A DNA stretch of 64,000 bases. It comes from Alphaproteobacteria bacterium (GTDB taxonomy: Bacteria; Pseudomonadota; Alphaproteobacteria; RF32; CAG-239). The notes beneath the pieces are model-generated. The model made no database searches, was not told where the DNA came from, and saw only the letters and a program-made list of their open reading frames with translations. Both the position numbers and the translations under genes were made by a program. Positions 3,193 through 36,348 of this stretch are shown piece by piece (positions within the stretch are counted from its first letter, which is position 1; each line of letters starts with the position of its first letter). The DNA lies in NCBI GenBank assembly GCA_048463395.1, contig DBFWPL010000019.1, forward strand, positions 2,668 to 66,667. Reading direction: 5' to 3'.

Positions 3193-4155
3193 TTACAAAT
3201 CCGGAAACATATTCATCCCGCGGGATAAGCGGGTCATTTGCGTTTCAATTGACGTCGCCAGATTAAGCTTGCCGCCCTTGATAATGCCGCGGACTTGGTC
3301 GCCTTTGGTGCTGACAGGGTTGGCAAACAGGAAGCTGACAGCCGGTATTTTGTGTTCAAAACCGTGCAGACTCTGGTGTAAAACGCCTAACATACCGCGA
3401 GAAAACAGGTCATAAGCCAACTCTTCGCTCATAGTGGTAGAGGCAGCGTATTTAACCACAGAGTTAATGGCGTCGGTAATATTGTTGGCGTGAATGGTAG
3501 AAAGTACCAGGTGGCCGGAGGTTGCGGCTCTCAAAACTTCGCTGGCCGTTTCCGGCGTACGGATTTCTCCGACCAGAATATATCGAGGTTTGGAACGCAG
3601 GGCGGATTTTAACCCTTCTCCCCAGTTTCCCTGAGGCGGCTGGGTTTGTTTGCATAATCCCAACCCGCCGGCAACGGAGTGATAAACGCCGTCGAGAGGC
3701 ATTTCGGTCGGATCTTCAATCGTGTAAGCAAAACCGCCTTGCAAGGTCAGATATTCTTTTAACAAACTGGAGATAGCTGTGGTTTTTCCGGCTCCGGTCG
3801 GTCCGGCCCAGAGAATAAGGCCGGAAGCCGTTGAAAGCGACAGTAAGTATTGAGCCAATTCCGGCGGAAAGCCCAAAGCTCCGAACGGAGGAACTTTCTT
3901 TGGCATTTTTCGGGCACAATATTGAACGCCATAAATGGACATAGTTCGTTCCACGCGATAGAACACGTCATCATAAAGCAAAGAGTAACTTGGGTTTTGT
4001 TTATCCCAGCCGTTTTCTAAAATCTGATAGAAAATTTCAAAATCTTCGGCAGATAAAACGGCCAGTCCGTTTGCTGTTCTGTTATCGGGAATATAAGCAG
4101 TTCTGTCCGGCGTAATGTAAATATCGGAGAACGGCACATCGTTAATTTTAACCAT
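3193..4155 (-). CDS. PilT/BfpF-like secretion ATPase (short, retraction-type)
   Basis: 320 aa. Walker A GPTGAGKTT, Asp/Walker B ILVGEIR, His box LSTIHAN. Lacks the long N-terminal domain and Zn-tetracysteine of GspE-type ATPases. Confidence 0.7.
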   Translation of the reverse strand: MVKINDVPFSDIYITPDRTAYIPDNRTANGLAVLSAEDFEIFYQILENGWDKQNPSYSLLYDDVFYRVERTMSIYGVQYCARKMPKKVPPFGALGFPPELAQYLLSLSTASGLILWAGPTGAGKTTAISSLLKEYLTLQGGFAYTIEDPTEMPLDGVYHSVAGGLGLCKQTQPPQGNWGEGLKSALRSKPRYILVGEIRTPETASEVLRAATSGHLVLSTIHANNITDAINSVVKYAASTTMSEELAYDLFSRGMLGVLHQSLHGFEHKIPAVSFLFANPVSTKGDQVRGIIKGGKLNLATSIETQMTRLSRGMNMFPDL

Positions 4156-4247
4156 AGAAGCCTCATATGTAAAAGATAATCCTGAGTATAACTTACGCTC
4201 TATGTCTTAAAAAATATTAAAGTTTATAGTAATATCAAAAAAACATT

Positions 4248-5699
4248 TTGATTTTTGGAAAAAATATGTTTAGAAAACTGACTTTTTTGTTGTTATTGAG
4301 TTTGGAACCGGTCTGGTTTCATTTTTGTTTGTTTCCGCAGAACGGATTTTCCGAGCTTTCGGCTTTTATAATCTTTGTGCAGGGAATTGCACTGTTTTTA
4401 TTGCTCTTAACGTTGGAAAAACTTCCCGTTGCCGTGTTTCTCTCGTTAGAAAGCCTGTTTTTTCTGATTTTGATTGCTTATCACAAATATTATGCCGATC
4501 CGCTGAGCTTGTCGGCTATGATTGGACAAATCAACGAGGCGGGAACTTTTGCTGCCAAATCCCCGTTCAGCTTGTTTAACCGGTACAGTGCGATTGTTTT
4601 TGTTCTTTATCTGCTCAAAGTCGGGTTTGTGTGGAAATATTATCAGCCCTTTTCGGATGTGTGGATAATAAGGGGCGGAATAGCAGCTCTTTTGATTCTT
4701 TTTGTTTTCCTGACCCATGGAAATTATGGCCGGCAATGGTTTTCCATTAACGATTTCAAACGTTATGTCCGTGAGTTGGGATATCCGCAAGGGTGGTGGT
4801 ATGAGGCGATGATGGCCTGGGATAAAAGAGCCATGGAGCAGGAAATTTTAAGCAATGCGGCTTTGCCCGAACCGGAACTGAATGATGATTTTAAGCAGAT
4901 TAAACCAACGAAGAACATATTTATCATACAAGTGGAAAGCTTGGATTATGAAGGGGTGTTTAAAAAGATAAACGAAAAGGAGGTTATGCCTTTTCTCAAG
5001 TCTCTTCGGGATAAAAGCTTGTTTTATACCCTGCTTCCGCATGATAAGAAAGCTTCAGCCAATTCTGACTTTACGATGTTGACCGGTACTTCAGTATATG
5101 ACGATACCTATTCGGCAATTTATATGTTGCTGTTACCGTCGGTTTATGAACAAATAGAAACCGTTCCGCAGCTGTTGAAGGAAAAAGGCTGGCATACCGC
5201 TTTTTATCACGGTTATAAAGGGTGGTTTTTCAATCGTGAAGAACACATAAAAGGAATGGGTTTTGACGAGGTGTTTTTTGAAGATACGCTCCCTTTGACA
5301 ACCTCCAAAGGAGAATGGGGCTTTGATGATAAAGACTTGTTTACGCATGTTTTAAAAACACAAACGAATAAAAAGAACTTTAATTTTATGATTACGGTCA
5401 GTTCTCACGAAAGTTTCAACATAGGAACAACGCATAAGACAGTTGTTGCTGAGCCACAAACCTTGGCAGACAAGTATTTTAATGCCTTAAATTATGTGGA
5501 TGAGGCCTTACGGATGTTAGTAGACGGAGCTCCGGAAGATAGTTTGTTTATCATTTATTCCGACCACCACAGCGGCATAACCGAAGACAAAAGAACGGTT
5601 TTTCTGGTTTATGGCAAAAATCAACAGCTTCACCTTGAACGGGAAACGGAATTTAACGGTCTTCCGCCACAGGTAAAAACTTTATTGAGAAGTTTTTAG
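4248..5699 (+). CDS. polytopic membrane protein with alkaline-phosphatase/sulfatase-superfamily domain (LtaS/EptA/PptA-like phosphotransferase)
   Basis: 483 aa. N-terminal region has about 5 TM helices. The C-terminal domain has MLTGTSVYDDTY, SSHESFN and YSDHHSG motifs typical of the sulfatase/phosphoglycerol-transferase family. The table start is a TTG at 4248; an ATG at 4266 is an alternative. Confidence 0.6.
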   Translation: MIFGKNMFRKLTFLLLLSLEPVWFHFCLFPQNGFSELSAFIIFVQGIALFLLLLTLEKLPVAVFLSLESLFFLILIAYHKYYADPLSLSAMIGQINEAGTFAAKSPFSLFNRYSAIVFVLYLLKVGFVWKYYQPFSDVWIIRGGIAALLILFVFLTHGNYGRQWFSINDFKRYVRELGYPQGWWYEAMMAWDKRAMEQEILSNAALPEPELNDDFKQIKPTKNIFIIQVESLDYEGVFKKINEKEVMPFLKSLRDKSLFYTLLPHDKKASANSDFTMLTGTSVYDDTYSAIYMLLLPSVYEQIETVPQLLKEKGWHTAFYHGYKGWFFNREEHIKGMGFDEVFFEDTLPLTTSKGEWGFDDKDLFTHVLKTQTNKKNFNFMITVSSHESFNIGTTHKTVVAEPQTLADKYFNALNYVDEALRMLVDGAPEDSLFIIYSDHHSGITEDKRTVFLVYGKNQQLHLERETEFNGLPPQVKTLLRSF

Positions 5700-5939
5700 G
5701 GATAAAAACACATCATCAGATAAGTCTATATAAAATACAATAATTAAACTTATAATAAAATAAGCCTAAATAAGTTTAATAATCAGTAAAAAATTAAACT
5801 TATTTTCTGGATCTATTGAGGTACTGGAGGCTTATGAACTGTTCAAATTCAGGGGAAGTTCATTCCGTACGGGGTAAGAATAAAAAAAGAACCTCATAAA
5901 GAGGCTCTTTTTGATTGAAGCAATGTAGTCTTTCTTGGA

Positions 5940-6569
5940 TTATTGGTATCTCCAAGAGATAGAACATGTTGGTTGGGTATCACAGTTACAAACAGTAGCA
6001 GCCTGAGACAAAGCAACCGGTAAGTCTGTTGTAACAGTTCCTGTATTATAAGTATAATATGTTGGAACAACCGTGTCTGAGGTAGCAGCAGCATTGCTGA
6101 CGGCCATACCGACCAAACCTGAAGCTGCACCGGTACCCCAGTCAGCCGTTGCAATGGAAACACAAGCTTCTTGGCTCAGGCCGTTATACGTAATTTGAAA
6201 GGCTTTGTTTGCGTAAACTCCAGATCCTGCACCGGCCGCAACGTTACCGGCAGCGGAAGCAATATTAACCTCGCCGTTGAAAGCGTTAACGATTTTGGAT
6301 GCAGAAGAATACATCTCGTTCGGGATAATACCAAAGTTAATGGCAGTTGCGTTAGTCAAACCGCTGTAGTTTCTCTGACCGGAATACAAAGTTCTGATGT
6401 TGGCAACCAACATGGAAACCTGATCCATGGTCTTGTTGATTTTGAACTTGGTCATTGCTTTTGAATAACCGGCGATACCGCCCACGGACAAAACGCCGAT
6501 GATGGCGAGCACGCCCAGCATTTCCACCATTGAACGACCGCTCTGGTCATTTTTATATAAATTTGTCAT
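5940..6569 (-). CDS. type IV (IVb-like) prepilin, paralog 1
   Basis: 209 aa. Leader MTNLYKNDQSG followed by RSMVEMLGVLAIIGVLSVGGIAGY, a hydrophobic N-terminal helix with Glu at +5 after the Gly (class III signal peptide). C-terminal Cys pair CNCDTQPTCSISWRYQ. RBS aggagaggag upstream. Confidence 0.7.
   Translation of the reverse strand: MTNLYKNDQSGRSMVEMLGVLAIIGVLSVGGIAGYSKAMTKFKINKTMDQVSMLVANIRTLYSGQRNYSGLTNATAINFGIIPNEMYSSASKIVNAFNGEVNIASAAGNVAAGAGSGVYANKAFQITYNGLSQEACVSIATADWGTGAASGLVGMAVSNAAATSDTVVPTYYTYNTGTVTTDLPVALSQAATVCNCDTQPTCSISWRYQ
6262..6560. repeat. ~300-bp near-identical direct repeat (copy 1), 5' half of pilin gene
   Basis: The sequence ...gttaacgattttggatgcagaagaatacatctcgttcgggataataccaaagttaat... 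and flanking DNA recur at 7133-7430. The encoded proteins are identical over about 100 residues. Confidence 0.8.
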
Positions 6570-6823
6570 TGCTCCTCTCCTTATAAAATCTTTTGCTAAA
6601 TTCCTTAGCAGTTTGCTTATACCTTAATCATAAAAGATTTATATTTACTTAACAATTCTGTCTTTAGGCATAATTTTATTTTTTTGATTATAACTTTTTG
6701 CATAAGGTCATATATCCAACTTCTGTTTTTTATATAATGAGTTTGTTTATTTTGCAATAAATGTTTTGCATTGGGGAAATCTTGCCTGATACCCGTTTAA
6801 CCCAAATAAATTGTCATGCAAAA

Positions 6824-7438
6824 CTATTGATAACGCCAAACAACGGAACATGACGGGGAGTTTTCACAGGCACATTTGGCGGCCGCTTGCGGCAAAACGA
6901 TAGGTAAATCAGTCTCAGCAGCTTTGTTATAGGTCGTATAGTTAGGCACAGTTGCCGAACTGCTCTCCGAACCGGATAAGTACATTCCCTCCAAACCGGA
7001 GGCGGCACCGCTTCCCCAATCCGCCGTACCTATGGTAACACAGGCCTCACGGCTCAGTCCGTTGTAGACGATTTGGAAGGACCTGTTTGTTTTGGTGCCG
7101 TTAGTGGCATTCAAGCTGTCTGCCGTAGAGATGATAACCTCGCCGTTGAAAGCGTTAACGATTTTGGATGCAGAAGAATACATCTCGTTCGGGATAATAC
7201 CAAAGTTAATAGCAGTTGCGTTAGTCAAACCGCTGTAGTTTCTCTGACCGGAATACAAAGTTCTGATGTTGGCAACCAACATGGAAACCTGATCCATGGT
7301 TTTGTTGATTTTGAATTTGGTCATCGCCTTTGAATAACCGGCGATACCGCCCACGGACAAAACGCCGATGATGGCGAGCACGCCCAGCATTTCCACCATT
7401 GAACGACCGTCTTGATTGTCTCTACACATTCTTTTCAC
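6824..7438 (-). CDS. type IV (IVb-like) prepilin, paralog 2
   Basis: Same leader and N-terminal roughly 105 aa as paralog 1, with a divergent C-terminus ending CACENSPSCSVVWRYQ. A GTG at 7436-7438 with GGAGG 6 nt upstream gives MKRMCRDNQDG + RSMVEML. The ORF track extends further upstream to 7468. Confidence 0.65.
   Translation of the reverse strand: MKRMCRDNQDGRSMVEMLGVLAIIGVLSVGGIAGYSKAMTKFKINKTMDQVSMLVANIRTLYSGQRNYSGLTNATAINFGIIPNEMYSSASKIVNAFNGEVIISTADSLNATNGTKTNRSFQIVYNGLSREACVTIGTADWGSGAASGLEGMYLSGSESSSATVPNYTTYNKAAETDLPIVLPQAAAKCACENSPSCSVVWRYQ
7133..7430. repeat. ~300-bp near-identical direct repeat (copy 2), 5' half of second pilin gene
   Basis: See copy 1. Confidence 0.8.
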
Positions 7439-7533
7439 GTTTAACCTCCAACACCCAAATAACTCCACACTTCCAGATTGAACGATTTTTTATTGTTTTT
7501 CAATTATGTCTTTAGTCATAATCATAAAAAAAC

Positions 7534-8109
7534 TTATTCAAAAGTCCATAATAGAATGTTCTTTTTTCCGCAATGCCTGCCGGCGTCTTCTCCGGTTATC
7601 GGAAGCTTATTTTCTCCCCCCCAAGAGAATACCGTTTGCTGCTTTTCGCTGAGAATTGTAATACTCAAAAGTCCCAAAGACTGGTTTTCGGTGAATTGAA
7701 ATTCCGCCAGTTGTTCACATTCTGTTTTATCTAAATCCGCATAAGCAATATCAAAACTTCTCGCCCCCGGCATAACAATTCCGCCGTCAGCCCCTTGTCC
7801 GACAAGAACCTGCTTTCCTAAAGCATTAAACATCTTCCCGCCGTTCTCAATAAAATACGGCGTGAGATTGTTTTTTAGAACGCTGTCTGTGCTCAACCCC
7901 CAATACCCCGGTCGATTTCGATAAAACTTTCTGATACCCTCCGCAGCGGATATGACTTCTCGGGCTGCCACGGCGATTTTCGGATTTGGACGGGAAAGCC
8001 AAACAATTGTTCCGATTATAATAACTGTTGCAACTAATCCGCTGACGGCAATTTTCAGGTTAATCCGTTGTTTCAAAGTCTTCAGAAGTTTTTTTGCTTT
8101 TTCGAACAT
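7534..8109 (-). CDS. hypothetical bitopic membrane protein in the pilus operon
   Basis: 191 aa. One N-terminal TM (IAVSGLVATVIIIGTIVWL) and a periplasmic remainder. Overlaps the upstream GspF-like gene by 1 nt. No recognisable pilin cleavage motif. Confidence 0.35.
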   Translation of the reverse strand: MFEKAKKLLKTLKQRINLKIAVSGLVATVIIIGTIVWLSRPNPKIAVAAREVISAAEGIRKFYRNRPGYWGLSTDSVLKNNLTPYFIENGGKMFNALGKQVLVGQGADGGIVMPGARSFDIAYADLDKTECEQLAEFQFTENQSLGLLSITILSEKQQTVFSWGGENKLPITGEDAGRHCGKKNILLWTFE

Positions 8110-9242
8110 TAGCCTGCTCCCATGGAACTGGTAATTTGATCTTGCATTTCAAACACGCCCATAACCGCCCAGGCGATAACGCCGCCCACGGAAAGCAAGG
8201 CGGCCATGTTTAAAATAGCCGCTTTTTGCTCAATCATGTAAACGGATTCGTCCAGCCAGTCGTTGGCAAGTTTTTCCAAAGCTTCTTCAAAGTTGTCCAA
8301 TTCCGAATAAATCTTCAGGTCGCTGATAATCTCGGCATCCGGAAAGTCCAATCCCGTTTTTGCCAAAGCCTGCCCCAGGTTATCACCGTTGTTGATGTGC
8401 ACAAGAGTCTCATCAATGCGTTCTTTCAAATAACTGTTTGAATCTCTTCTTAATGCTCTTAACGAGGTTGAAACCGGCGTACCGCTCTTGACCAAGGCGG
8501 AAAGAGCCAATAGCCAGCTGATGCCGGAAAAGACTTTGTACAAAGACCAAGGCGGAATGCTGTCAAAAAAAGCTCTGATTCTTCCCGTCCAAATACCGAT
8601 GGTTCCGTAAATAATAATCATGACAATCGGGAGAGCCGAGAATGCAACAAGCCAGTATTGGGCAATCCAGTCTGATATATCCACCAATGTCTTGGCGGTG
8701 CCTCTCCACCGAACGGTCGGAGCGGCGTCAATCATCGGCGGCACCATGTAAACGCCGATACCGTAAATAATCAAAATCGCCATCATAAACAAAAAGGTCG
8801 GGTAGGTAATGGCTCCGATAATCGGGCGAACCATTTTGGTAGAACCTTCCGTAACACGGATAAGGTTTAACAACGCTCCTTCCAAATCGGAAACGTCGCC
8901 CACGGAAAGCATAAGGCGTTCACGGTTTGGAGCCCAGCCTTTCAGTGCGTCGGAAAACGGGAGACCATTTTGCAAAGCTTTACCCCAGCTGGCAATGGCG
9001 ATTGCCAACGGTTCGCTCGGATTCTTTCCGCCGTTGCTCACACTGTCGTGTAAAAGGTCTAACGCGTCCATTAATGAAAAGCGGTTACGCATCAAAGACG
9101 CCAGCTTACGATAAATTTTCAATCTGGTGTCGTTTGAAAACTGACAAATCATCTTGGCATAATAAACTTCAATCGTATTCAGCTGCCGCATAGCCTTTGC
9201 AAGGGACGCTGTTTGACGCTTTTTTTTCTCTTCTTCAGCCAT
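8109..9242 (-). CDS. GspF/PilC-family inner-membrane platform protein (R64 PilR / BfpE / TcpE-like)
   Basis: 377 aa. Cytoplasmic N-domain followed by three TM helices and a repeated cytoplasmic domain, the typical T2SS_F topology. Confidence 0.75.
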   Translation of the reverse strand: MAEEEKKKRQTASLAKAMRQLNTIEVYYAKMICQFSNDTRLKIYRKLASLMRNRFSLMDALDLLHDSVSNGGKNPSEPLAIAIASWGKALQNGLPFSDALKGWAPNRERLMLSVGDVSDLEGALLNLIRVTEGSTKMVRPIIGAITYPTFLFMMAILIIYGIGVYMVPPMIDAAPTVRWRGTAKTLVDISDWIAQYWLVAFSALPIVMIIIYGTIGIWTGRIRAFFDSIPPWSLYKVFSGISWLLALSALVKSGTPVSTSLRALRRDSNSYLKERIDETLVHINNGDNLGQALAKTGLDFPDAEIISDLKIYSELDNFEEALEKLANDWLDESVYMIEQKAAILNMAALLSVGGVIAWAVMGVFEMQDQITSSMGAG

Positions 9243-9267
9243 TTTTGATTTTGCTCCTTAAAATTAA

Positions 9268-10917
9268 CTAGTAAGCCGGACGTTGATCCAACAGACCGCA
9301 CCAACGTTCAACTTCGTCCAAATCAATATATCCTTTTAACATTCGCTCAATGGCGGCTTCTTTTAAGGTGCGGCCGTTCAAATCGCTTGTCCAGTAGTCA
9401 ATGGCTTTTCTGGTCTCACCCTTAATCATCAGTTCCAAAAACATGGCGTCCGGCAAAATGATTTCCGGCACGCTCATACGTCCTTTAACGCCTCTGTTAT
9501 CGCAGTATTTACATCCCGGACCGCGGACAAACGTGTTTTCCACGCCAAAGTCGCCCAACGCAACGCGAAGCCTTTGCACCGAAGGGTCGTTCAGCTTTTC
9601 TTTTACCGACATTCGGCAGTGAGGGCAAAGTTTACGGAACAAACGTTGTGAAATCAAGCCTTTCATCAACTCAGGGTCAACGAGTTTAAACGGTTCAACG
9701 CCCATGTCGCGGAGACGCATTAAAATTGCCGGAGCAGAGTTGGCGTGCAAAGTGGACCACATTCCGTGTCCGGACAATGCTCCTTGGAAAGTCAATTGGG
9801 CGGCCGCAAGGGCACGAATCTCACCCACCATAATAACGTCCGGGTCGGAACGCAGAGCGGCAGACAAAGCTTTGGTAAACTGTTCGGCCTTTTCTTCTTC
9901 GGTATTGGCGTTGGTAACCGGCATTTGTCTTGCTCCCGGAATAGGATACTCCGGCGGATCTTCCACCGTCAAAAGGTTAAGTTCATAATTTTTCTCCTGC
10001 AACAGCTTAATCATGTTTCTTTGCAGGGTGGTTGATTTTCCCGATCCCGTCGGTCCGGCAATAATATTCAAGCCTACCGGAACTGCCCGCAAGCGGTAAA
10101 ACAGGTTTTCTTCATATTCACCGAAACCCAGAGCCGACAAATCGCCGCTTCCGTCCGGATTGTCATCGGCATATAACAAACGCATAACCAGATATTGCGA
10201 ACCGAAGGCAATCGGGTTAAATTGCAGACGAATAGCCAACACGTTGTGCGGCAGCATTAATTTTCCTTTGGAACCTCTCAGCGGAGTGGAACCAAGCTTT
10301 TGGGCTCCCTGAAACTCGTTTTGGGCATAGTTTGCGTCTGAAATATCCGCGGAGGCAAATGCAGCACGGACAAAGGATTCCCCCCATTCCTTATTATATT
10401 CCATTTCCGTTTGCATCATACCGTTGACGCGAAACATAATCTGGGTACTGTCGGCAACGACAATGTGAATATCGGACACTTTTTGCGAGGCGGCTCTGGC
10501 AACCACGTTGACAAAGTCCTTCTGCATTTGCAGCTGGTCAAGGTCGGCATCATTCTCTACAACGGCTTGATTACGTTCGCCATATGCATAAATAGCATTC
10601 AGCTCGTTTTGAGAAACATATTTTGGCTTGAGTAAGTTTAACTTTTTCTTACGAACCAGAACTTCAAAGCTTAAGACGCGTCCGTCAAACTTATGCGTTT
10701 CCGAAACCAGGTATTGTCCGTCGGAAAACAAGGCGACAAGACGCCTGGTATCGTCATTGATGACTAATGAGGAACCCGGAAGAGTTAATAAACGATTACC
10801 GTTTCCGAAATATCCTTCAAACAGGTTTTGCGGCTTTTTTTCTTCATCCCCGCTTTCTGCTAAATCCGGATTTTTTTCTTTCTCTTCTGCAACATTATTT
10901 TTTTCTTCGTCAGCCAT
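9268..10917 (-). CDS. GspE/PilB-family assembly ATPase (R64 PilQ / BfpD / TcpT-like)
   Basis: 549 aa. Walker A GPTGSGKSTT, DVIMVGEIR, His box STLHAN, and Zn tetracysteine CPHC...CKYC. Confidence 0.85.
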   Translation of the reverse strand: MADEEKNNVAEEKEKNPDLAESGDEEKKPQNLFEGYFGNGNRLLTLPGSSLVINDDTRRLVALFSDGQYLVSETHKFDGRVLSFEVLVRKKKLNLLKPKYVSQNELNAIYAYGERNQAVVENDADLDQLQMQKDFVNVVARAASQKVSDIHIVVADSTQIMFRVNGMMQTEMEYNKEWGESFVRAAFASADISDANYAQNEFQGAQKLGSTPLRGSKGKLMLPHNVLAIRLQFNPIAFGSQYLVMRLLYADDNPDGSGDLSALGFGEYEENLFYRLRAVPVGLNIIAGPTGSGKSTTLQRNMIKLLQEKNYELNLLTVEDPPEYPIPGARQMPVTNANTEEEKAEQFTKALSAALRSDPDVIMVGEIRALAAAQLTFQGALSGHGMWSTLHANSAPAILMRLRDMGVEPFKLVDPELMKGLISQRLFRKLCPHCRMSVKEKLNDPSVQRLRVALGDFGVENTFVRGPGCKYCDNRGVKGRMSVPEIILPDAMFLELMIKGETRKAIDYWTSDLNGRTLKEAAIERMLKGYIDLDEVERWCGLLDQRPAY

Positions 10918-10925
10918 TTGCCGAA

Positions 10926-12332
10926 TTACCTAACAAACATGCCTTTTCCGAGGCTGGGGATACCGTCTGATACTTGTAAGTTGCTCCCCTCTTCAGAAGC
11001 GTCGGCTTTTTTGTCTTTGTCTTTTTTAACGGCAGGTTTCTTTGCCGGTTCTTTTTCAAGAATACCGCCGGCTGCAAAATACAGATAATCTTTCACACCG
11101 TTCTTTTCAGCCCTGACGTATGTTTGTGTAATTTCATCTACAACATGACCGCTTTGTAAAGATGTTCCCTTGCGGACAAGGAATGAATCTCCGCCTTTGT
11201 TAATCAATTTGGCTGCCAATGCGTCGCCTTTGCCAATAATTTCCATAACGGCATATTCTTCAGGAAGCTTGATAACGACTTCTTCCTCAACCGGTTTGGC
11301 AGCCTCTTCCGTTGCAGCTTGTGCAAACGGATTGGCTTTGCTGTTTTCTTTCTCGGCTCTTTCGGCTTCCAAACGGGCTTTCAAGATGGAAATCTGAGTT
11401 TGCAGATTGGCAATTTCCCGATTATAATTTGTTCGGGCGGTTTCTGCGTCTTTACTGGTTTTTGCGGCTAAAGTCGCAAGATAATTTACTTTTTTCTTAA
11501 AGTCGTTAATTTGGTTTTCTTTTTCTTCTTCGACTTTGGATAATTCGTCATAGATACCTTCGTTGTTTTTAATCCACTCTTGTGTGGAAGCCAGCATACT
11601 TTCTTTATAGGCATTCAGAATTTTTTCCTGACGAAGTTTTTCCAATGCCAGAGAAATTTCCTTAAGCTTTTGTTTTTCTTGCAAAAGCTTTCTTTCCTGC
11701 TCTTTTTCCCATTCTAATTTTTTCCGCTCTTTTTCTTCTTCTTTGGTTTTAACCTCGTCAATGGCTTTTTGACGTTGGGCTTTGATGGCCTCAATTTCAT
11801 TTCTGATTTTTTCACGTCTTAGTTCCAAAGTTAGCAGAGCGGTCTGTTTTTCCAAATCAGACATTTGGGAAAACAGCTCGTTGTCGATTTGATTTAAGAG
11901 AATGTCTCCTGATGTGTCGATGGCCGATATGTTACGGGATGTTGCGGAAATGCCTTCCTGCAACTCATCGTCCTGGTCAGCAGGAGCCGGTAAAGAAATA
12001 GGGGCACTATCCGCAGGTTCCATCTCCGGCATAACCGGAGTATTGGCTTCAAAATCTGTTTGCGGAGAAGGAAATTGTCCGCCCGGATTAATCAAATCGT
12101 CAGACGGTTCCGTTGTCGCGTCATCTTCGCTGTTATTTGTTTCAAACAAAGCAATTTCATCCGGAATTGAGCTGTCAACCCCCAGAAAATTATCATTATC
12201 TTCATTGCTGAGTTGAGGAGCCTCGTCAGCCAAGGTAACGGTTCCTTGTGCATAAGCGGCTTGTCCGGCGGCTAATCCCCAGACAAAAGCAATTGCCGTT
12301 GAGCACAAAATCTTTCTTAAATTATAAAACAT
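10926..12332 (-). CDS. secreted acidic/coiled-coil pilus biogenesis protein
   Basis: 468 aa. Signal peptide (AIAFVWGLAAGQAAYAQG). An acidic disordered stretch is followed by a long E/K/R-rich coiled coil and a small C-terminal domain. Sits between the ATPase and PilO-like genes. Confidence 0.45.
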   Translation of the reverse strand: MFYNLRKILCSTAIAFVWGLAAGQAAYAQGTVTLADEAPQLSNEDNDNFLGVDSSIPDEIALFETNNSEDDATTEPSDDLINPGGQFPSPQTDFEANTPVMPEMEPADSAPISLPAPADQDDELQEGISATSRNISAIDTSGDILLNQIDNELFSQMSDLEKQTALLTLELRREKIRNEIEAIKAQRQKAIDEVKTKEEEKERKKLEWEKEQERKLLQEKQKLKEISLALEKLRQEKILNAYKESMLASTQEWIKNNEGIYDELSKVEEEKENQINDFKKKVNYLATLAAKTSKDAETARTNYNREIANLQTQISILKARLEAERAEKENSKANPFAQAATEEAAKPVEEEVVIKLPEEYAVMEIIGKGDALAAKLINKGGDSFLVRKGTSLQSGHVVDEITQTYVRAEKNGVKDYLYFAAGGILEKEPAKKPAVKKDKDKKADASEEGSNLQVSDGIPSLGKGMFVR

Positions 12333-13599
12333 AGATCGCTCCCTCGTAATCCCACATATCGTTACTGACGTTATAATTAATCATATTAATGGTAAGTCCT
12401 GAAAATTTTGTTAATAAATCCATCCATACCAGAGGATTATGGCTGGATGAAAACTTGAATTGTACAGAACTATATACATTATTCTGCGGAGAAACGTATG
12501 AAAAACTGCTCAAAACCACTTTTTGCCCGATGGCTTGAAACAAATCATTAAGTAAAACTTTTAAATCCTCGTCGCTTTTCATCGGCGGAGAAGAAATGAT
12601 TTCCACTTTTCCCAACGGAACAGAAGCAATAATGTTGTCTCCATTGTCAGAAACCGAACGACTGGAAAAAATCAGTCCGGAATCATCTAAGGCCTTGTTA
12701 ATCCAAGAAACACGGCCGATTTCCCTTTTCCAAGATGTTGTGATGCCTTCCGGCGTGCAAGTCAGATTGTTAATAGTCCATCCCGGCGGCAGAATTTTTT
12801 TCAAAGCCTCAATGCCGTAATAGCACCATTTTATAACATCGTTCGGGCGGTTAACCTTCTCCCAAGGTTTAATTTCCGGCGGCTCTTCAACCTGCTTGAC
12901 AACTTTCGGCGGAATTGGAGCTATAATCGGCCTTTTCGGCGGAGCCAGAAAAATTCCGTTGATAATACTGGATAACAGCCACAAGCCGATAATTGCCGAA
13001 ATAACAACAACGATTAAGAGCTTAGTGCCTCGTAACGCCTTAATCTTTTGCAGCTTGGCTCTCAGGCCTTTATTTAATAATTGTGTAAGATCAGGATATT
13101 CCGTTTCTTCAATGCCCCATTCAGGCGGAGCAATTTTTCTGCCCCAGTCCGGAACGGCCAACATCGACATGAACTGTTCTTTGGCTTCCTGTTCGGACAA
13201 AAACAGCATATCGCCGTCAGACAAAATGATGTCGTTACGAATACAGGTATACCACCATCCGTTGTCGACTTTGAATACGGCAACAAAAGAAGAACGGTCT
13301 GAAAGGGCTGTGGCTAATGTTACGGCAGCAACATTGTCGCCCTTTTTATAACCTTCACCGGAAACACAGATACCGAATTGAGGGGCTTTCCCCGGTTTGA
13401 TACAGAATAAATCGGCACCTTCCAGAATACCTTCGGAAGCTTCTTCCACCTCGTTAAACGGATCATCCTTGTTTTGCAGAGGCTGCCAGAACAAGCTGGT
13501 TGCGTAAGATACGCCGGCAACGGTAATATTCGTTCCCCAGGAACGCTGCTTACCTCCGTTTTCGTAATCTTCATCTAATAACTTTGCTTCTTCCAGCAC
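12322..13599 (-). CDS. PilO-like (IncI thin-pilus type) bitopic pilus assembly protein
   Basis: 425 aa. Cytoplasmic N-domain, a central TM (LLIVVVISAIIGLWLLSSIINGIFL) and a periplasmic C-domain. Size and position match R64 PilO and BfpC. Confidence 0.4.
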   Translation of the reverse strand: MLEEAKLLDEDYENGGKQRSWGTNITVAGVSYATSLFWQPLQNKDDPFNEVEEASEGILEGADLFCIKPGKAPQFGICVSGEGYKKGDNVAAVTLATALSDRSSFVAVFKVDNGWWYTCIRNDIILSDGDMLFLSEQEAKEQFMSMLAVPDWGRKIAPPEWGIEETEYPDLTQLLNKGLRAKLQKIKALRGTKLLIVVVISAIIGLWLLSSIINGIFLAPPKRPIIAPIPPKVVKQVEEPPEIKPWEKVNRPNDVIKWCYYGIEALKKILPPGWTINNLTCTPEGITTSWKREIGRVSWINKALDDSGLIFSSRSVSDNGDNIIASVPLGKVEIISSPPMKSDEDLKVLLNDLFQAIGQKVVLSSFSYVSPQNNVYSSVQFKFSSSHNPLVWMDLLTKFSGLTINMINYNVSNDMWDYEGAIYVL

Positions 13600-13614
13600 C
13601 GTTTTATCCTTTTC

Positions 13615-15231
13615 TTAAAACTGATCTTTCATTCTGGATTCCGGTGTTAAAGGTGAATCCAAAACAACCGGAGTTAAGATAATGACCAGAATATTTCTTG
13701 TTTTGTCGGCAGTTGCCGTACCGCCGAACAAAGAGTTTTCTGCTGACCCGACCCCTGTTTTTTCAGCTTTGTTCTCAACACGTTCATAACCTGTCAAGAC
13801 CAAAGATTCTCCGGATTTTAACGCAACTTCCTGCGTAAAGCCGCGAGATTCGATAACCGGGTTTTGGATGTATTGTCCGTCTGACCCTTCACCGCTGCCG
13901 CCTAAGTCAACTCTTTCAAGTTGAAGCAGGTCAGACAAAGTCAGGTTGAACATTAACAACATGCGTCCGTGTTCCAAAATACGCGGCAGAATATCCATTG
14001 TGAAACCGGTTTCGATTTCTTCGGTCTCTGTTGAGATATCATAGTAGCTGGCATCACCGCCGCTGTTGGTCTTGGTAATTTCAGAAATATAGTTTTGTTT
14101 TCTGACAACCTGAATAGGAGCCGGTTTGTTATTCAAAGTAGTAACCGTACCGCTGGTAATCAAATTGGTTGTTCCTTGTGTGGACAAGGCCTGAATGGCT
14201 CCGTCAACAGTCCAGTCTCCGGACAAGACCTTCATGCTTAAATTGTTGGTTACATCAGTCCCCAATCCCGGAACACTGGCAATTGTACCGGAAAGTTTAT
14301 TTTTATCATCAAAGATAGCGGAAAGATTTAAACCATATTGGTCGCTGTCTTCAATATTGACCTGCAGAACTTTGACGCTGATGGCAACTTGTCTGGACAA
14401 ACGGGCATTTTGTTCATTAATGAACTTTGCCACTTTTCTGATGTCATTCGGTGTCGCTGTCAATGAAATTGTTCCGTTTGCCGGATCCAAAGTCAGTTTG
14501 GCATCCTTGGAAATCATTGATGTAATGGATTTTTCAATATTTCCCCATAACTCAATGGAAATGGAGCTGGACAAACCGATAGAGGAGGTGCCCTCGCTTC
14601 CTGATGACGAGCCGCCGACATTGACGTTCAATGTTGGCTTTGTCGGCAGAGAGTAAAGGACAAACGTTCTGGTAATATACTTATAAAAATATATTTCTTT
14701 CTTTTCATAAGACCACCAAATGCCGAAACGGGATGAAATTTCATCCAACAAACCGCTTAAAGGCCCTTGATAAGAAACCAGCATTTTGCTTGGTTCCGTC
14801 CAGTCTGAATTAATCGTTTCCGGATTAGGCTTGTTAGACGCCGCAGTTTTGAAGGCATCTTCTTCAAGCTGAGGAGAAAATCTGATTTTCAAAGAAGTGA
14901 TTTTATTAATCATATCGCCGATTTCATACAAAGTAATCGGACGGTTGCTGATTAAGGTAATGCCGTCTTTCCCTTCAAGGTAAGAAGGCAAAGGCTCTCC
15001 TTCATACTCAATCTCGCTGGTATCGCCCAGCCAGATATCATTTTTTACCCGCACAACATCGTCTGAGGAGGGTTTTGTCGGGATTTTTGCGGCTTCTTTG
15101 AGCTGTGTTGCAGCTTCTACTTCCCGCTCAATTGTTGCGTCCAAACTGGTAGACAGGGAACAAGAGGCGATTAACGCTGCAAGTGCTGCTCCTAAACTAC
15201 ATTTTGCCCAATTATTCATATGCATTCTCAT
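13615..15231 (-). CDS. lipoprotein secretin (R64 PilN / BfpB / TcpC class)
   Basis: 538 aa. Lipobox IASC in the signal peptide. C-terminal secretin signature ...SLFGGTATADKTRNILVIILTPVVLDS. Confidence 0.75.
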   Translation of the reverse strand: MRMHMNNWAKCSLGAALAALIASCSLSTSLDATIEREVEAATQLKEAAKIPTKPSSDDVVRVKNDIWLGDTSEIEYEGEPLPSYLEGKDGITLISNRPITLYEIGDMINKITSLKIRFSPQLEEDAFKTAASNKPNPETINSDWTEPSKMLVSYQGPLSGLLDEISSRFGIWWSYEKKEIYFYKYITRTFVLYSLPTKPTLNVNVGGSSSGSEGTSSIGLSSSISIELWGNIEKSITSMISKDAKLTLDPANGTISLTATPNDIRKVAKFINEQNARLSRQVAISVKVLQVNIEDSDQYGLNLSAIFDDKNKLSGTIASVPGLGTDVTNNLSMKVLSGDWTVDGAIQALSTQGTTNLITSGTVTTLNNKPAPIQVVRKQNYISEITKTNSGGDASYYDISTETEEIETGFTMDILPRILEHGRMLLMFNLTLSDLLQLERVDLGGSGEGSDGQYIQNPVIESRGFTQEVALKSGESLVLTGYERVENKAEKTGVGSAENSLFGGTATADKTRNILVIILTPVVLDSPLTPESRMKDQF

Positions 15232-15862
15232 CCTCCATTGTCTCTACGACCAAGACGCGGTTTCCTTTATAAAATGTTGCGATCGGAGCCGGACGTGCTC
15301 TGGCAAAAGCTCTGATAAGAGCAGAACTTACATCCGCAAAACGTCCTCTGAACATTGCTCCGGCGGTTAGAGTATAATTTCTGTTACTTTTCCAAATCAG
15401 TCTCCAGCCGGCTCTTTCGCTCCATTCCGTCAGCAATGTTTTAAGAGACTGTCCTTCTTCTGCCAGCCAGTCTTCAACAGGATCTTCGGCGGAATAGCTG
15501 TCGCCGCTGTTACCGTTTCCGTTGTTTTCGGTAATTTTGATTTCCTCTTCGTAATCGACCACCTCGTCTTCAATGGCCGGAGGGATGGAAGACGACATAT
15601 TGCTTCCGGCTCCGGATTGAACAATATTTTGATCGCGGGGAGATCTTTCTCCGTATTCTTTATAATCGGCGGCAACTCTTGTGTAATTTACAAAATCACG
15701 ACCGGATGATGTATCCGCATCAAAACTTCCGCTTTGACAACTCGCGTCGGGACAAGGAACATTATCCGGCAGCTCATCCATTGGCTCAGCCATGGAGCCG
15801 GCACAGGCGGCAGTCAAAAACAATCCGAAAAAACAAGAGACTAGTCTTATTTTTGAGTCCAT
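15212..15862 (-). CDS. lipoprotein, pilus-associated (PilL/TcpQ-like position)
   Basis: The internal Met gives MDSKIRLVSCFFGLFLTAACAGS (lipobox LTAAC). The ORF track extends to 15907. Overlaps the secretin gene start. Confidence 0.45.
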   Translation of the reverse strand: MDSKIRLVSCFFGLFLTAACAGSMAEPMDELPDNVPCPDASCQSGSFDADTSSGRDFVNYTRVAADYKEYGERSPRDQNIVQSGAGSNMSSSIPPAIEDEVVDYEEEIKITENNGNGNSGDSYSAEDPVEDWLAEEGQSLKTLLTEWSERAGWRLIWKSNRNYTLTAGAMFRGRFADVSSALIRAFARARPAPIATFYKGNRVLVVETMEDENAYE

Positions 15863-15957
15863 ATTTATAATCCCTAAGCTGTATTTTGTCATATTTTTAC
15901 CTATCATACATATTGAAAATTAAATAATCAAGCACGACACTTCAGTTATTACCAAGG

Positions 15958-17709
15958 TTACCATTGCTGGTAATATTGTTGTATGCTGCGGTTATTTTCT
16001 TCTGTGCTCCTGTTAAAGTTGTTATTGATTCTTACGGTTCGTATAATAAATGAATTAGGTTCCCGGGTTGTGAATACAGTATTGATTTTGCTGTATTCTA
16101 CACCCTTATTGGTTAATATATTATGTAAAAGATTCAGTCTTTTCTGCTGTAAAGCGAAAGAGCTTGTTCCGTCGATGCGAATTTCCAGTCCGATAGATGA
16201 ATCTTCCAGGGTTTTGTTTGCAAAGGCCTGTATCCATTTCAGTGTTTGTCCCGATATTTCGGCTCGGTTAGGCTGGAATGAGAGCCTGATTTCCGTTGGC
16301 AGAATTTTTTGGGATGAACTGAATTTTTTTATTCTTCCCGATATCCGGTTGAAGAAATTGTCTTCTGCTTCGTCATCTTGGATATTGGCATTCTCCTTTG
16401 TGCTCTGCTCGGTTTTTTGAGCATCGTTTCCTGAGAAGATGGAAGTAATGCTTTTCAAGAAGCTGCTGGTTTTGGGAATAATGGTTGCAGGAGGTTCTTT
16501 TCCTTCAACTTTGATTTGATTTTGAGGAGCTTCTTTACTTTCGATAACTTCTTTTTCAAGATTGGCTTTTTCCTCCGAATTTGGAGAAACCAGTTGAGGA
16601 GTAAGATTTTCGTCATTGAGAATGTCTTCGGGGATAGGAATGAGGATATTTTTAACCATTCCTGAATCTGCCAGCAAGATTTCGTCTTCTTGCGATGAAA
16701 ATGGTGCGGAAGTTCTCAGAGCCTGCTGAATATTTTCTTTTTCTCCGTTTTTGTAGTACTCTTGGTCTAAAACACTGTTGTTTTTAGGATGCTTTGTTCC
16801 TTTCGCAACAACCCATGGCTCATTCGAGTTATTTTTTTCTTCCATAGTTGTCCAATTCGGGGTTTGTTGAGAATTGTCCCCCTCTGTTTTGACGGAGGAA
16901 GCAATCATGCTTTTAATCGGAATGTTTTTTTCGGCCAAAGCAAGCTGGTTCTGATCCGGAGAATTGATGATTTCTATTTTTTTGTTTGCTTTTGCTGTCG
17001 TTCCGTCCCTTTCTATCGGAATAAGCAAATCCGAAGAGCTTTCTTCTTTTGGTTGGGATGAATGTATCTCTTTGACCGGAATTAAGTTATTTGGCGTTCG
17101 GGCTTCTGCCACAAGAAACGCCTCGCCGTCTCCGGCTTGTTCCGGAAGTAAATCTGCCGGAGATTTATCGGTGATCTCCGGTTTTTCAGTCTCAAAAGGA
17201 AGAATGTTCAGCTCAGTCTCGTCTTTGGCAATGATAATTTCCGATTCATCAACGGGAGGGGTATTGTTGATGATTTTATCAAAGTTTTCGACGATTTTCT
17301 GAGGCTTCTGCTTTAGCCGGGGATCTATTTCCAGAGGGATAAACGAAATTTCCCTCAGATTTTTATCATTTTGAACTTGAGGGTTCTCGTCGGCGTCAGC
17401 TGAAGTCGATGAACCGGTTGTTTCTTCCCCGCTTCCGAAAGTTAAAGGAATGTCTTCTTGCAAAGAAAACCGAGAGGTTGAGTTTTTTTTCGGAAGGGTT
17501 AATGCAACTTTCTTCACCGGAATGACTTTTGACGAAGCGGTGCTTTTTAGCTCGTTTTTCAAGAAAAGGGTAATGTTTTTGTTTGAAATTTTAAGTTCGT
17601 CTGTACGAATGGAGCGGTTACGAAGATATACTCCGTTTACCGTAAAAATTGTAAACAGAGAAAAAACAAAGCTGCAAACAAACGTTTTTAAACTTGTCTT
17701 TTTCATCAA
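15958..17709 (-). CDS. large low-complexity membrane-anchored protein, first gene of pilus operon
   Basis: 583 aa. N-terminal hydrophobic segment. A long S/E/N/K/P-rich disordered region. A roughly 120-aa C-terminal folded domain (IRLSFQPNRAEISGQTLKWIQAFANK...). Confidence 0.4.
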   Translation of the reverse strand: MMKKTSLKTFVCSFVFSLFTIFTVNGVYLRNRSIRTDELKISNKNITLFLKNELKSTASSKVIPVKKVALTLPKKNSTSRFSLQEDIPLTFGSGEETTGSSTSADADENPQVQNDKNLREISFIPLEIDPRLKQKPQKIVENFDKIINNTPPVDESEIIIAKDETELNILPFETEKPEITDKSPADLLPEQAGDGEAFLVAEARTPNNLIPVKEIHSSQPKEESSSDLLIPIERDGTTAKANKKIEIINSPDQNQLALAEKNIPIKSMIASSVKTEGDNSQQTPNWTTMEEKNNSNEPWVVAKGTKHPKNNSVLDQEYYKNGEKENIQQALRTSAPFSSQEDEILLADSGMVKNILIPIPEDILNDENLTPQLVSPNSEEKANLEKEVIESKEAPQNQIKVEGKEPPATIIPKTSSFLKSITSIFSGNDAQKTEQSTKENANIQDDEAEDNFFNRISGRIKKFSSSQKILPTEIRLSFQPNRAEISGQTLKWIQAFANKTLEDSSIGLEIRIDGTSSFALQQKRLNLLHNILTNKGVEYSKINTVFTTREPNSFIIRTVRINNNFNRSTEENNRSIQQYYQQW

Positions 17710-36333: not shown

Positions 36334-36348
36334 AAGGTGTATTTCATA

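What the first reader, a model, noticed from the sequence alone, without database searches (positions are those of the whole stretch)
5940..7438. Tandem pilin genes with identical 5' ~300 bp and divergent 3' halves
Both encode class-III signal peptides with an identical leader and N-terminal roughly 105 residues. Their C-terminal halves diverge completely yet keep the terminal Cys pair and WRYQ. Each has its own upstream region. The constant-N, variable-C arrangement recalls PilV shufflon variants and pilE/pilS cassettes. It could give alternative receptor specificity. The two copies could also recombine through the 300-bp repeat to delete or exchange the intervening segment.
Basis: seen in the sequence. 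Interest (0 to 1): 0.6.

Follow-up and report, generated by a model that had tools for sequence, protein, structure and literature searches.

The report
Two tandem type IVb pilin genes
Two neighbouring genes for the main subunit of a type IVb pilus, in an uncultured gut alphaproteobacterium, keep a nearly identical first half through gene conversion and differ in their second half; this is a clean example of a familiar pilin pattern, not a new kind of system.

Summary
On the minus strand, gene A (5940-6569, 209 aa) and gene B (6824-7438, 204 aa, GTG start) are both full-length PilS/bundlin-family type IVb pilins. They end an R64-like pilus operon (PilL/N/O/P/Q/R order). Codons 10-101 differ at 5 of about 275 nt, all synonymous. 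The 11-residue leaders differ. The 3' halves are 58.8% (nt) and about 56% (aa) identical, not "completely" diverged.

Purifying selection cannot explain the 5' identity. Pilin pairs from different genomes with equally diverged 3' halves average 71% in the 5' block. In the 5' block the copies group by genome. In the 3' block they group by type (A or B). This points to recurrent gene conversion limited to the 5' module, breaking at codon 102, where the model's first beta strand starts.

Independent assemblies carry the same B-A tandem, so the tandem arrangement is not an assembly artefact. Related loci hold 1, 2 or 3 pilin copies. I found no silent cassettes, no flanking inverted repeats and no recombinase among the ORFs scanned, so the shufflon and pilE/pilS analogies fail. 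The closest analogues are tandem major-pilin paralogs such as those of Streptococcus sanguinis and Legionella. Verdict: new member of a known kind, modest interest.

The parts
5940..6569 (-). Pilin gene A (209 aa): type IVb major-pilin paralog, leader MTNLYKNDQSG, predicted cleavage G|RSMVEML
   Evidence: ORF list. Pfam PilS PF08805 E=2e-15 and Bundlin PF05307 E=2e-12. Foldseek top hits are CofA, PilS and TcpA type IVb pilins. AAGGAGAGGAG lies upstream of the ATG.
6824..7438 (-). Pilin gene B (204 aa, GTG start): second type IVb major-pilin paralog, leader MKRMCRDNQDG
   Evidence: ORF list. GGAGG lies 6 nt before the GTG. The product is identical to database protein P0014, also called as 204 aa. 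Pfam PilS E=8e-16.
6267..6542 (-). Near-identical 5' block in gene A (codons 10-101). It encodes the cleavage site, helix alpha1 and the alpha-beta loop, up to the NAFNGEV motif.
   Evidence: In the AF2 model the block ends where the first beta strand (residues 100-108) begins.
7136..7411 (-). Near-identical 5' block in gene B (codons 10-101)
   Evidence: Five synonymous differences from the block in A, at codons 37, 38, 41, 46 and 76. dS = 0.085 and dN = 0.
5943..6263 (-). Variable 3' half of gene A (A-type; beta sheet, loops and C-terminal Cys-rich region)
   Evidence: 58.8% nt identity to the 3' half of B. 82-87% identity to A orthologs in L001 and L004.
6827..7132 (-). Variable 3' half of gene B (B-type)
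   Evidence: 74-78% nt identity to B orthologs and 58-63% to A-type halves.
6653..6674 (-). 22-nt motif ATTATGCCTAAAGACAGAATTG upstream of gene A. It abuts a sigma-70-like -35/-10 pair (TTGTTA-17-TATGAT, 6655-6627).
   Evidence: The motif occurs only twice in the window against 0 expected. It is conserved in L001 and L002, and a related form precedes the single pilin gene of L085. Promoter scan.
7501..7522 (-). Second copy of the 22-nt motif (ATTATGACTAAAGACATAATTG), upstream of gene B
6570..6823 (-). B-A intergenic region. It is AT-rich and highly conserved across four genomes. Presumed promoter and operator region of gene A; no terminator-like site after B.
   Evidence: Alignment of W, L001, L002 and L004. 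No terminator was found on the minus strand here. No Rfam match. RNA folding z-score -0.29.
5884..5912 (-). Intrinsic-terminator-like hairpin with a T run, just after gene A
   Evidence: Conserved in L001, L002, L004 and L084.
7534..8109 (-). Pilin-like gene (191 aa) with no recognisable G/E+5 cleavage motif; probable minor or accessory pilin
   Evidence: Weak PilS E=1.5e-5 and Bundlin E=3.5e-4 hits. Present before the pilin gene(s) in most operon-linked loci.
8109..17709 (-). Type IVb pilus assembly genes upstream in the same orientation: 583-aa unknown, TcpQ-domain protein (PilL-like), secretin, PilO, PilP-domain protein, T2SSE ATPase, T2SSF platform
   Evidence: Pfam and NCBIfam hits.
3193..5699 (.). 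Downstream neighbours: LtaS/sulfatase-family membrane enzyme (4248-5699, +) and PilT/PilU-like ATPase (3193-4155, -)
   Evidence: Same neighbours in L001, L002 and L086-L088.

Best explanation
These are two functional, tandemly duplicated major-pilin genes (PilS/bundlin class) at the end of an R64/PAPI-1-like type IVb pilus operon in an uncultured gut alphaproteobacterium.

The 5' module encodes the prepilin-peptidase site, the polymerisation helix alpha1 and the alpha-beta loop. Purifying selection plus repeated intragenomic gene conversion keep it almost identical in both genes. Either subunit should therefore be processed and polymerised by the same machinery (inferred).

The 3' module encodes the beta-sheet, loops and Cys-rich C-terminus. 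From what is known of type IV pilins, this part should form much of the filament surface; surface exposure was not analysed here. It is kept as two old, distinct types, A and B, which are also swapped between strains by recombination that breaks at the same boundary.

The likely outcome is a pilus surface of two different subunit types, either mixed in one fibre or used alternately. This would diversify adhesion or antigenicity (inferred, not shown). Each gene carries the same 22-nt upstream motif, which suggests common regulation (inferred). Homologous recombination between the 5' blocks can also change copy number; related loci carry 1 to 3 copies.
For: Family and fold:
- Pfam PilS and Bundlin hits.
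- BfpA and TcpA sequence hits in the PDB.
- Foldseek hits to CofA, PilS and TcpA.

Operon: TcpQ-domain protein, secretin, PilO, PilP, ATPase and platform.

Both genes look functional:
- Both are intact, with Shine-Dalgarno sequence, start codon, G-1 and E+5.
- Ortholog dN/dS in the 3' half is 0.06-0.22.

Gene conversion:
- In the window pair the 5' block has dS = 0.085 and dN = 0. The 3' half has saturated dS and dN = 0.39.
- Ortholog dS is about 0.39-0.44 in both halves, for example W_A versus L4_A.
- The 5' block groups by genome: W_A/W_B 98.2% and L4_A/L4_B 94.5%, against 93.0% and 88.6% for the orthologs. Each genome pair has its own shared derived sites.
- The 3' block groups by type.
- Baseline from 127 between-genome pairs with 55-60% identity in the 3' half: 5' identity 71 +/- 5%, and 54% identical codons among same-residue codons, against 94.5% for the window pair.

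The boundary recurs:
- It falls at codon 102, the NAFxG motif, where beta strand 1 starts.
- The same break appears in a distant clade, L052 and L066.
- Between strains, the A genes of L001 and L002 have 5' dS = 0.07 but 3' dS about 1, while the flanks are 97-99% identical.

Copy number is 1, 2 or 3 in related loci. The motif occurs twice against 0 expected.
Against: - There are no expression or protein data. Which copy is the major subunit, and whether the two co-assemble, is pure inference.
- The promoter-like site of gene B is weak, so B may depend on operon read-through.
- No prepilin peptidase gene was seen among the window ORFs scanned.
- The AF2 model is of only moderate confidence (pLDDT 68).
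- The window-specific 98% identity comes from a single assembly. P0014 probably comes from the same record, and I could not check reads.
- Averaged dN/dS gives no sign of positive selection on the 3' half.
Confidence: 0.8

Rival explanations
1. The 5' identity reflects only strong purifying selection on the conserved pilin N-terminus after an old duplication. No gene conversion is involved.
For: The N-terminal 60-70 residues are nearly invariant across the whole family, even at 50-60% overall identity. In every tandem pair the 5' half is more similar than the 3' half.
Against: - Synonymous sites are also homogenised. The 5' dS is 0.085, against saturation in the 3' half and about 0.4 between orthologs.
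- 94.5% of same-residue codons are identical, against a 54% baseline.
- Both copies share derived synonymous states that the orthologs lack.
Confidence: 0.05
2. Assembly artefact: a repeat was expanded or mis-threaded, so one of the two copies, or their near-identity, is not real.
For: Metagenome assemblies often mishandle 280-nt repeats. Many homologs sit on contigs of about 1 kb that break near the repeat. Only one assembly carries exactly this pair.
Against: - The same tandem, with distinct A and B 3' halves, distinct leaders and distinct upstream regions, is present in independent assemblies: L001, L002, L004 and L086-L089.
- The two copies differ at 5 sites and in everything outside the block.
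- Derived sites unique to this genome are present in both copies.
Confidence: 0.05
3. A programmed variation system in the manner of the R64 shufflon, the Moraxella Q/I inversion or Neisseria pilE/pilS. One expressed gene would draw on the other as a cassette through site-specific or high-frequency recombination.
For: - The layout is constant-N and variable-C, inside an R64-like operon.
- The hybrid contig L084 joins B 5' to A 3'.
- 3' halves are swapped between conspecific strains.
Against: - The repeats are in direct orientation and both genes are complete, each with its own start and upstream motif.
- There are no truncated copies in 64 kb.
- No flanking inverted repeats.
- No recombinase or invertase among the scanned ORFs.
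- A and B types remain stable as orthologs across four genomes.
Confidence: 0.08
4. Only one copy is the fibre-forming major pilin. The other is a low-abundance (minor) pilin or has a role unrelated to piliation, as reported for one of the two Legionella PilA paralogs.
For: - In L. pneumophila, PilA2 but not PilA1 was confirmed on the cell surface under standard conditions (PMC13170364).
- Gene A alone has the long conserved upstream region, a good -35/-10 pair and the terminator.
- The single pilin gene of L085 carries the A-type upstream region.
Against: - Both proteins score equally as PilS/bundlin pilins.
- Both are of major-pilin size with an identical assembly module.
- Both are conserved under purifying selection.
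Confidence: 0.3

Closest known systems
Tandem major-pilin paralogs of Streptococcus sanguinis (pilE1/pilE2; pilA1-3)
   Same: Strains carry two or three adjacent full-length major pilin genes. The N-terminal alpha1 regions are highly conserved (PilA1 and PilA3 are identical over residues 1-53). Paralogs within a strain share high identity while the genes are less conserved between strains, and copy number varies by strain (PMC11121087).
   Different: Those are type IVa-like pilins of a Gram-positive bacterium. The sharp break between a 98% block and a 59% block, and the dS evidence for conversion limited to the 5' module, are shown here and not taken from that work. Co-assembly is untested here.
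Legionella pneumophila pilA1/pilA2
   Same: One locus encodes two related predicted major pilins that are about 72% identical, the same overall identity as A versus B here (PMC13170364).
   Different: In Legionella the differences are spread along the whole length. Here they are confined to the 3' half. Legionella has a type IVa pilus, and only PilA2 was confirmed on the surface.
R64 / Salmonella Typhi / PAPI-1 type IVb pilus (pilL-pilV) with the PilV shufflon
   Same: PilS-family pilin, and PilL(TcpQ-like)-PilN-PilO-PilP-PilQ-PilR-PilS gene order. The operon lies next to a type IV secretion system. The idea of a constant N-terminus with variable C-termini also matches.
   Different: I found no PilU peptidase, PilV adhesin or Rci recombinase among the scanned ORFs, and no flanking inverted repeats. 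Here the major pilin is what varies, as two separate complete genes. A PilT-like ATPase is present. The description of R64 rests on my own knowledge.
Neisseria pilE/pilS gene conversion
   Same: Recombination between pilin copies that share conserved sequence, with variability concentrated in the C-terminal part of the subunit (PMC4023411 abstract).
   Different: In Neisseria the variable part is converted from promoterless, 5'-truncated silent copies. Here the constant 5' part is converted, between two complete genes that each have a start codon and ribosome-binding site. No silent copies were found in the window.
Staphylococcus aureus lpl tandem paralog cluster (Tsuru and Kobayashi 2008)
   Same: Tandem paralogs share a highly conserved internal segment that serves as the site of homologous recombination. 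This shuffles variable regions and changes copy number, so different parts of one ORF have incongruent phylogenies (PMC2568036).
   Different: Those are lipoproteins with a central conserved region flanked by two variable regions. Here the conserved block is at the 5' end and the proteins are pilins.

Membership tests
Type IV pilin (class III signal peptide) | Short basic leader ending in Gly(-1), Glu at +5, and a hydrophobic alpha1-N segment of about 20 residues | tested here: met
   The sequences read ...QSG|RSMVEMLGVLAIIGVLSVGGIAGY in A and ...QDG|RSMVEML... in B. G11, E16 and the hydrophobic stretch are invariant in 25 homologs.
Type IV pilin (class III signal peptide) | Match to the N-terminal methylation motif model (PF07963) | tested here: inconclusive
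   Scores are 16.4 and 15.2 bits, below the 21.2-bit cut-off. The +1 residue is Arg, not Phe or Met. From my own knowledge, a variable +1 residue is usual in type IVb pilins.
Type IV pilin (class III signal peptide) | A cognate prepilin peptidase (peptidase A24) is present | tested here: not met
   None of the window ORFs scanned against Pfam or NCBIfam is an A24 peptidase. Not every ORF was scanned and the rest of the genome is unavailable, so absence from the genome is not shown.
Type IVb pilin, PilS/bundlin family (PF08805, PF05307) | Sequence match above the curated threshold | tested here: met
   PilS scores 57.4 and 58.7 bits (cut-off 22). Bundlin scores 47.9 and 46.6 bits (cut-off 22.3). 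BfpA 1zwt gives E=2.8e-8.
Type IVb pilin, PilS/bundlin family (PF08805, PF05307) | Type IVb pilin fold | tested here: met
   The top 16 Foldseek hits are all type IVb pilins (the ETEC type IVb pilus subunit 9iuf, CofA, PilS, TcpA), with probability 0.96-1.00 and TM-score 0.44-0.67. The model is of moderate confidence, pLDDT 68.
R64/PAPI-1-type type IVb pilus operon | PilL, PilN secretin, PilO, PilP, PilQ ATPase, PilR platform and PilS pilin in that order | tested here: met
   TcpQ-domain protein, Secretin, PAP_PilO, pilP_fam (TIGR03021), T2SSE, T2SSF and PilS, in this order on the minus strand from 15907 to 5940.
R64/PAPI-1-type type IVb pilus operon | PilU prepilin peptidase and a PilV minor pilin/adhesin downstream of PilS | tested here: not met
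   Downstream of the pilins lie a sulfatase-family gene and a PilT-like ATPase. A 191-aa pilin-like gene lies upstream instead.
Shufflon (Rci-mediated multiple inversion) | Rci-type tyrosine recombinase, plus short inverted sfx repeats that flank alternative 3' segments in both orientations | tested here: not met
   The variable segments are in direct orientation inside complete genes. No inverted repeats flank them, and no recombinase is among the scanned ORFs.
pilE/pilS-type silent cassette system | One expression locus plus promoterless copies that lack the 5' constant region | tested here: not met
   Both copies are full length with leader, Shine-Dalgarno sequence and start codon. tblastn and blastn with the 3' halves find no further copies in the window. 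The rest of the genome could not be searched.
Tandem major-pilin paralogs (for example S. sanguinis, Legionella) | Two or more adjacent, co-oriented, full-length pilin genes of major-pilin type at one pilus locus | tested here: met
   The arrangement recurs in relatives with 1-3 copies.
Tandem major-pilin paralogs (for example S. sanguinis, Legionella) | Both proteins are incorporated into pili | not testable with these tools
   This needs pilus purification with mass spectrometry, or specific antibodies.

The most novel reading that the evidence does not exclude
The 5' blocks, about 275 bp long, act as a built-in recombination substrate. At an appreciable frequency within populations they would delete, duplicate and exchange pilin 3' modules. 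Supporting hints are the hybrid single-gene contig L084, the 1-3 copies seen among relatives, and the swap of 3' halves between conspecific strains. This would give abundant gut commensal Alphaproteobacteria a homologous-recombination-driven switch of pilus surface type, possibly coupled to the co-varying LtaS-like enzyme next door.
Probability: 0.12. Interest if true: 0.6.

Novelty: new member of a known kind. Interest (0 to 1): 0.3.

Why it matters
The pilus family is very common in uncultured gut and rumen Alphaproteobacteria. The scan found more than 580 genomic matches and thousands of proteins, and I found no published study of it in two literature searches.

The locus gives a clean, quantifiable example of partial concerted evolution. 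The part of the pilin expected to interact with the assembly machinery is homogenised. The remaining 3' part is kept as two old types and is exchanged between strains.

This is useful for three purposes: annotation (both genes are real and should not be merged), assembly quality control (the repeat fragments contigs), and hypotheses about surface variation and host or partner recognition in these commensals. It does not reveal a new mechanism.

Tried and rejected
- **Silent cassettes.** tblastn and blastn with the N-terminal and C-terminal halves against the window found only the two genes.
- **Inverted repeats or invertible segment.** There was nothing beyond short chance matches. The reported "inverted" pair I1 is really the partly palindromic 22-nt motif, present as a direct repeat.
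- **Known RNA in the conserved intergenic region.** There was no Rfam match above noise. RNA folding was no better than shuffled sequence, z = -0.29.
- **Sigma-54 and CtrA-type sites.** I looked for these by eye upstream of gene A and found no convincing match, so I make no claim.
- **Link between the sulfatase-family gene and pilin copy number.** The link is not strict. The gene is present in the W clade, L050 and L073 only, while many two- and three-copy loci lack it.
- **L084 as proof of deletion.** I rejected it as proof. It is a 1.1-kb contig at 2.3x coverage, it starts with adapter-like sequence, and its far downstream part matches nothing.
- **Positive selection on the 3' half.** Averaged dN/dS is 0.06-0.22, which gives no support. 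Site-wise tests were not done.
- **Literature on pili of these gut Alphaproteobacteria (RF32-type).** The search found nothing relevant.
Full report
**What is in the sequence**

Two ORFs lie on the minus strand at the reported coordinates. Gene A runs 5940-6569 (209 aa, ATG start preceded by AAGGAGAGGAG). Gene B runs 6824-7438 (204 aa). B most likely starts at a GTG that lies 6 nt after GGAGG. A database protein identical to B was also called at 204 aa (P0014).

The two proteins are 72% identical overall. A codon-level alignment shows three zones.
- The 11-residue leaders differ: MTNLYKNDQSG versus MKRMCRDNQDG, 50% nt identity.
- Codons 11-101 differ at 5 of 273 nt, all synonymous.
- From codon 102 to the end, identity is 58.8% in nt and about 56% in aa.

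The contrast between the last two zones gives Fisher p = 2e-35, with the maximum chi-square breakpoint at codon 102. Four cysteines are conserved, not one terminal pair, along with several core motifs.

**What the genes are**

Both proteins match the type IVb pilin families PilS (PF08805) and Bundlin (PF05307) well above threshold. By sequence they hit BfpA and TcpA among solved structures.

An AlphaFold model of A (pLDDT 68) finds only type IVb pilins as its top Foldseek matches: the ETEC type IVb pilus subunit, CofA, PilS and TcpA. Gly(-1), Glu(+5) and the hydrophobic helix are invariant across 25 homologs.

The genes close a minus-strand operon that encodes, in order:
- a TcpQ-domain (PilL-like) protein;
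- a secretin;
- PilO;
- a PilP-domain protein;
- a T2SSE ATPase;
- a T2SSF platform protein;
- a 191-aa pilin-like protein without a cleavage motif.

This is the R64/PAPI-1 gene order. Downstream lie an LtaS/sulfatase-family membrane enzyme and a PilT-like ATPase. On the other side is a large type IV secretion cluster. I found no prepilin peptidase, PilV-type adhesin or recombinase among the ORFs scanned.

**Where it comes from**

Homologs number in the thousands. The genome scan found more than 580 matching stretches. Nearly all are in MAGs of uncultured gut and rumen Alphaproteobacteria, such as "Azospirillum sp." MAGs, CAG:495 and CAG:977.

Four close relatives assembled independently carry the same order: pilin-like gene, B, A, sulfatase-family gene, PilT-like gene. 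These are L001, L002, L004 and L086-L089. This rules out an assembly artefact for the tandem itself.

Among operon-linked loci, the number of full-length pilin genes after the pilin-like gene is 1, 2 or 3.

**Why the 5' halves are alike**

The N-terminus is highly conserved at protein level across the whole family, so some similarity is expected. It does not explain the silent sites.
- For 127 between-genome pilin pairs whose 3' halves are 55-60% identical, the 5' block averages 71 +/- 5% identity. Only 54% of same-residue codons are identical. The window pair has 97.5% and 94.5%.
- Nei-Gojobori estimates for the window pair give dS = 0.085 and dN = 0 in the 5' block. In the 3' half dS is saturated and dN = 0.39.
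- The orthologs W_A and L4_A have dS of 0.39-0.44 in both halves.
- In the 5' block the copies group by genome. W_A/W_B are 98.2% identical and L4_A/L4_B 94.5%, against 93.0% and 88.6% for the orthologs. Each genome pair has its own shared derived synonymous states.
- In the 3' half the copies group strictly by type: A-A 82-87% (W, L004, L001), B-B 74-92%, A-B 58-65%.

This incongruence is the signature of gene conversion confined to the 5' module. The conversion happened after these lineages split, and at least twice. The five residual differences cluster at codons 37-46 and 76. The flanking tracts look B-like on the upstream side and A-like on the downstream side, which suggests more than one conversion tract.

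**The boundary is a general feature**

The break falls at the NAFxGxV motif. In the model this is where the first beta strand begins. The homogenised unit is therefore the cleavage site, alpha1 and the alpha-beta loop. The variable unit is the sheet, the loops and the Cys-rich C-terminus.

A distant clade with quite different pilins (L052, L066) shows the same break: about 91-93% identity before mature residue 87 and about 60% after it.

Recombination between strains uses the same boundary. L001 and L002 are 97-99% identical in the flanks. Their A genes have 5' dS = 0.07 but 3' dS of about 1, and nt identity falls to 63%.

One short contig (L084) joins the B upstream region, B leader and B-like 5' block to an A-like 3' half and the A terminator. 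This is what a deletion between the repeats would produce. Its coverage is 2.3x and it begins with adapter-like sequence, so I treat it as a hint only.

**Regulation**

A 22-nt, partly palindromic motif (ATTATGMCTAAAGACAKAATTG) occurs exactly twice in 64 kb against 0 expected. One copy lies 63 nt upstream of the B start and the other 84 nt upstream of the A start. The motif is conserved in L001 and L002. A related form precedes the single pilin gene of L085.

Upstream of A the motif abuts TTGTTA-17-TATGAT. The whole 254-nt B-A spacer is highly conserved across four genomes. The spacer has no Rfam match and no unusual RNA structure. No terminator follows B, and a strong one follows A.

I infer that A has its own promoter and that B is driven by read-through and/or a weaker motif-dependent promoter. 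None of this is shown.

**Mechanism, with its status**

Shown:
- two intact type IVb major-pilin paralogs;
- 5' gene conversion;
- old A and B types of the 3' half;
- exchange of 3' halves between strains;
- variable copy number.

Inferred:
- the shared 5' module lets one peptidase and one assembly machine handle both subunits;
- the 3' halves give two different filament surfaces, mixed or alternative;
- the two genes are co-regulated through the shared motif.

**Comparison with known systems**

The pattern matches tandem major-pilin paralogs known elsewhere. S. sanguinis has two or three adjacent genes with conserved N-termini, and paralogs are more alike within a strain than pilin genes are between strains (PMC11121087). 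L. pneumophila PilA1 and PilA2 are about 72% identical (PMC13170364).

It also matches the recombination logic described for the S. aureus lpl tandem cluster (PMC2568036).

It is not a shufflon and not a pilE/pilS system. Both copies are complete, they are in direct orientation, and there are no silent copies, no flanking inverted repeats and no recombinase among the scanned ORFs.

**Verdict**

This is a new member of a known kind, with modest interest (0.3). The most novel reading still open is active, population-level switching of pilin 3' modules through the repeats. I give it about 0.12 probability.

Noticed in passing
window 6653-6674 and 7501-7522 (minus strand): A 22-nt, partly palindromic motif (ATTATGMCTAAAGACAKAATTG) occurs only upstream of the two pilin genes, against 0 expected by chance. 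It is conserved in L001 and L002, and a related form precedes the single pilin gene of L085. It looks like an operator for an unidentified regulator.
   Followed up: partly
window 4248-5699 (+); L001/L002 equivalent: An LtaS/sulfatase-family membrane enzyme sits between the pilins and the PilT-like ATPase, but only in some clades. Between the conspecific strains L001 and L002 (flanks 97-99% identical), part of this gene drops to 65-75% identity, alongside the 3' half of pilin A (63%). It may be a pilin-modifying enzyme that co-varies with the pilin allele.
   Followed up: partly
window 7534-8109 (-): A 191-aa pilin-like protein lies just upstream of the pilins. It has only weak PilS and Bundlin matches and no G/E+5 cleavage motif. 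It is among the most variable genes between the window and L001 (about 67% nt).
   Followed up: no
window 18030-47310 (+): A type IV secretion cluster has duplicated components: two TrbC/VirB2 genes (18030-18374, 18418-18891) that share repeated segments with the next ORF, and two VirB8 genes (34526-35284, 35599-36333). It also encodes VirB4 (21934-24366), a CagX/VirB9-like protein (36337-38040) and a VirB11-like ATPase (46342-47310).
   Followed up: partly
window 38037-41897 and 41900-46327 (+): Two giant proteins (1286 and 1475 aa) are built from repeats with a 51-nt period. The first protein, the only one scanned, hits beta-flower, DUF3659 and RHS repeat families. They are embedded in the secretion cluster between the VirB9-like and VirB11-like genes.
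   Followed up: no
window 50665-53541 (-): A 958-aa ORF carries a repeated acidic, Trp-rich motif (DNA repeat family D7, TTCATACTCCCATTCCCA on the plus strand). It has no Pfam match.
   Followed up: no
window 55874-59656 (-): A 1260-aa protein combines an M23 peptidase domain with a VgrG3-like C-terminal domain. The large ORFs that follow have no family match. A 21-nt tandem repeat lies at 60040-60165.
   Followed up: no
L086 5548-6612: In one strain a Fic-domain gene is inserted between pilin A and the sulfatase-family gene. It is absent from the otherwise matching loci L087 and L088. This marks the spot as an insertion-prone variable region.
   Followed up: no
L084 (1130-nt ENA contig): This contig carries a single hybrid pilin gene: B upstream region, B leader and B 5' block, then an A-like 3' half and the A terminator. 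The contig begins with Nextera-adapter-like sequence, has 2.3x coverage, and its last 200 nt or so match nothing fetched.
   Followed up: partly
L052 5254-6579; L066 5968-7934: In a distant clade of the same pilin family, tandem copies show the same two-zone pattern (5' about 91-93%, 3' about 60%), breaking at the equivalent NAFGG motif. L066 also has a very recent extra duplicate, 98% and 96% identical in the two zones.
   Followed up: partly
Genome-contig loci L041, L053, L070, L078 (one MAG); L039, L056, L069 (one MAG): Single MAGs carry pilin genes of this family on three or four different contigs, many without the assembly operon nearby. These bacteria therefore hold dispersed pilin repertoires as well as tandem copies.
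   Followed up: no
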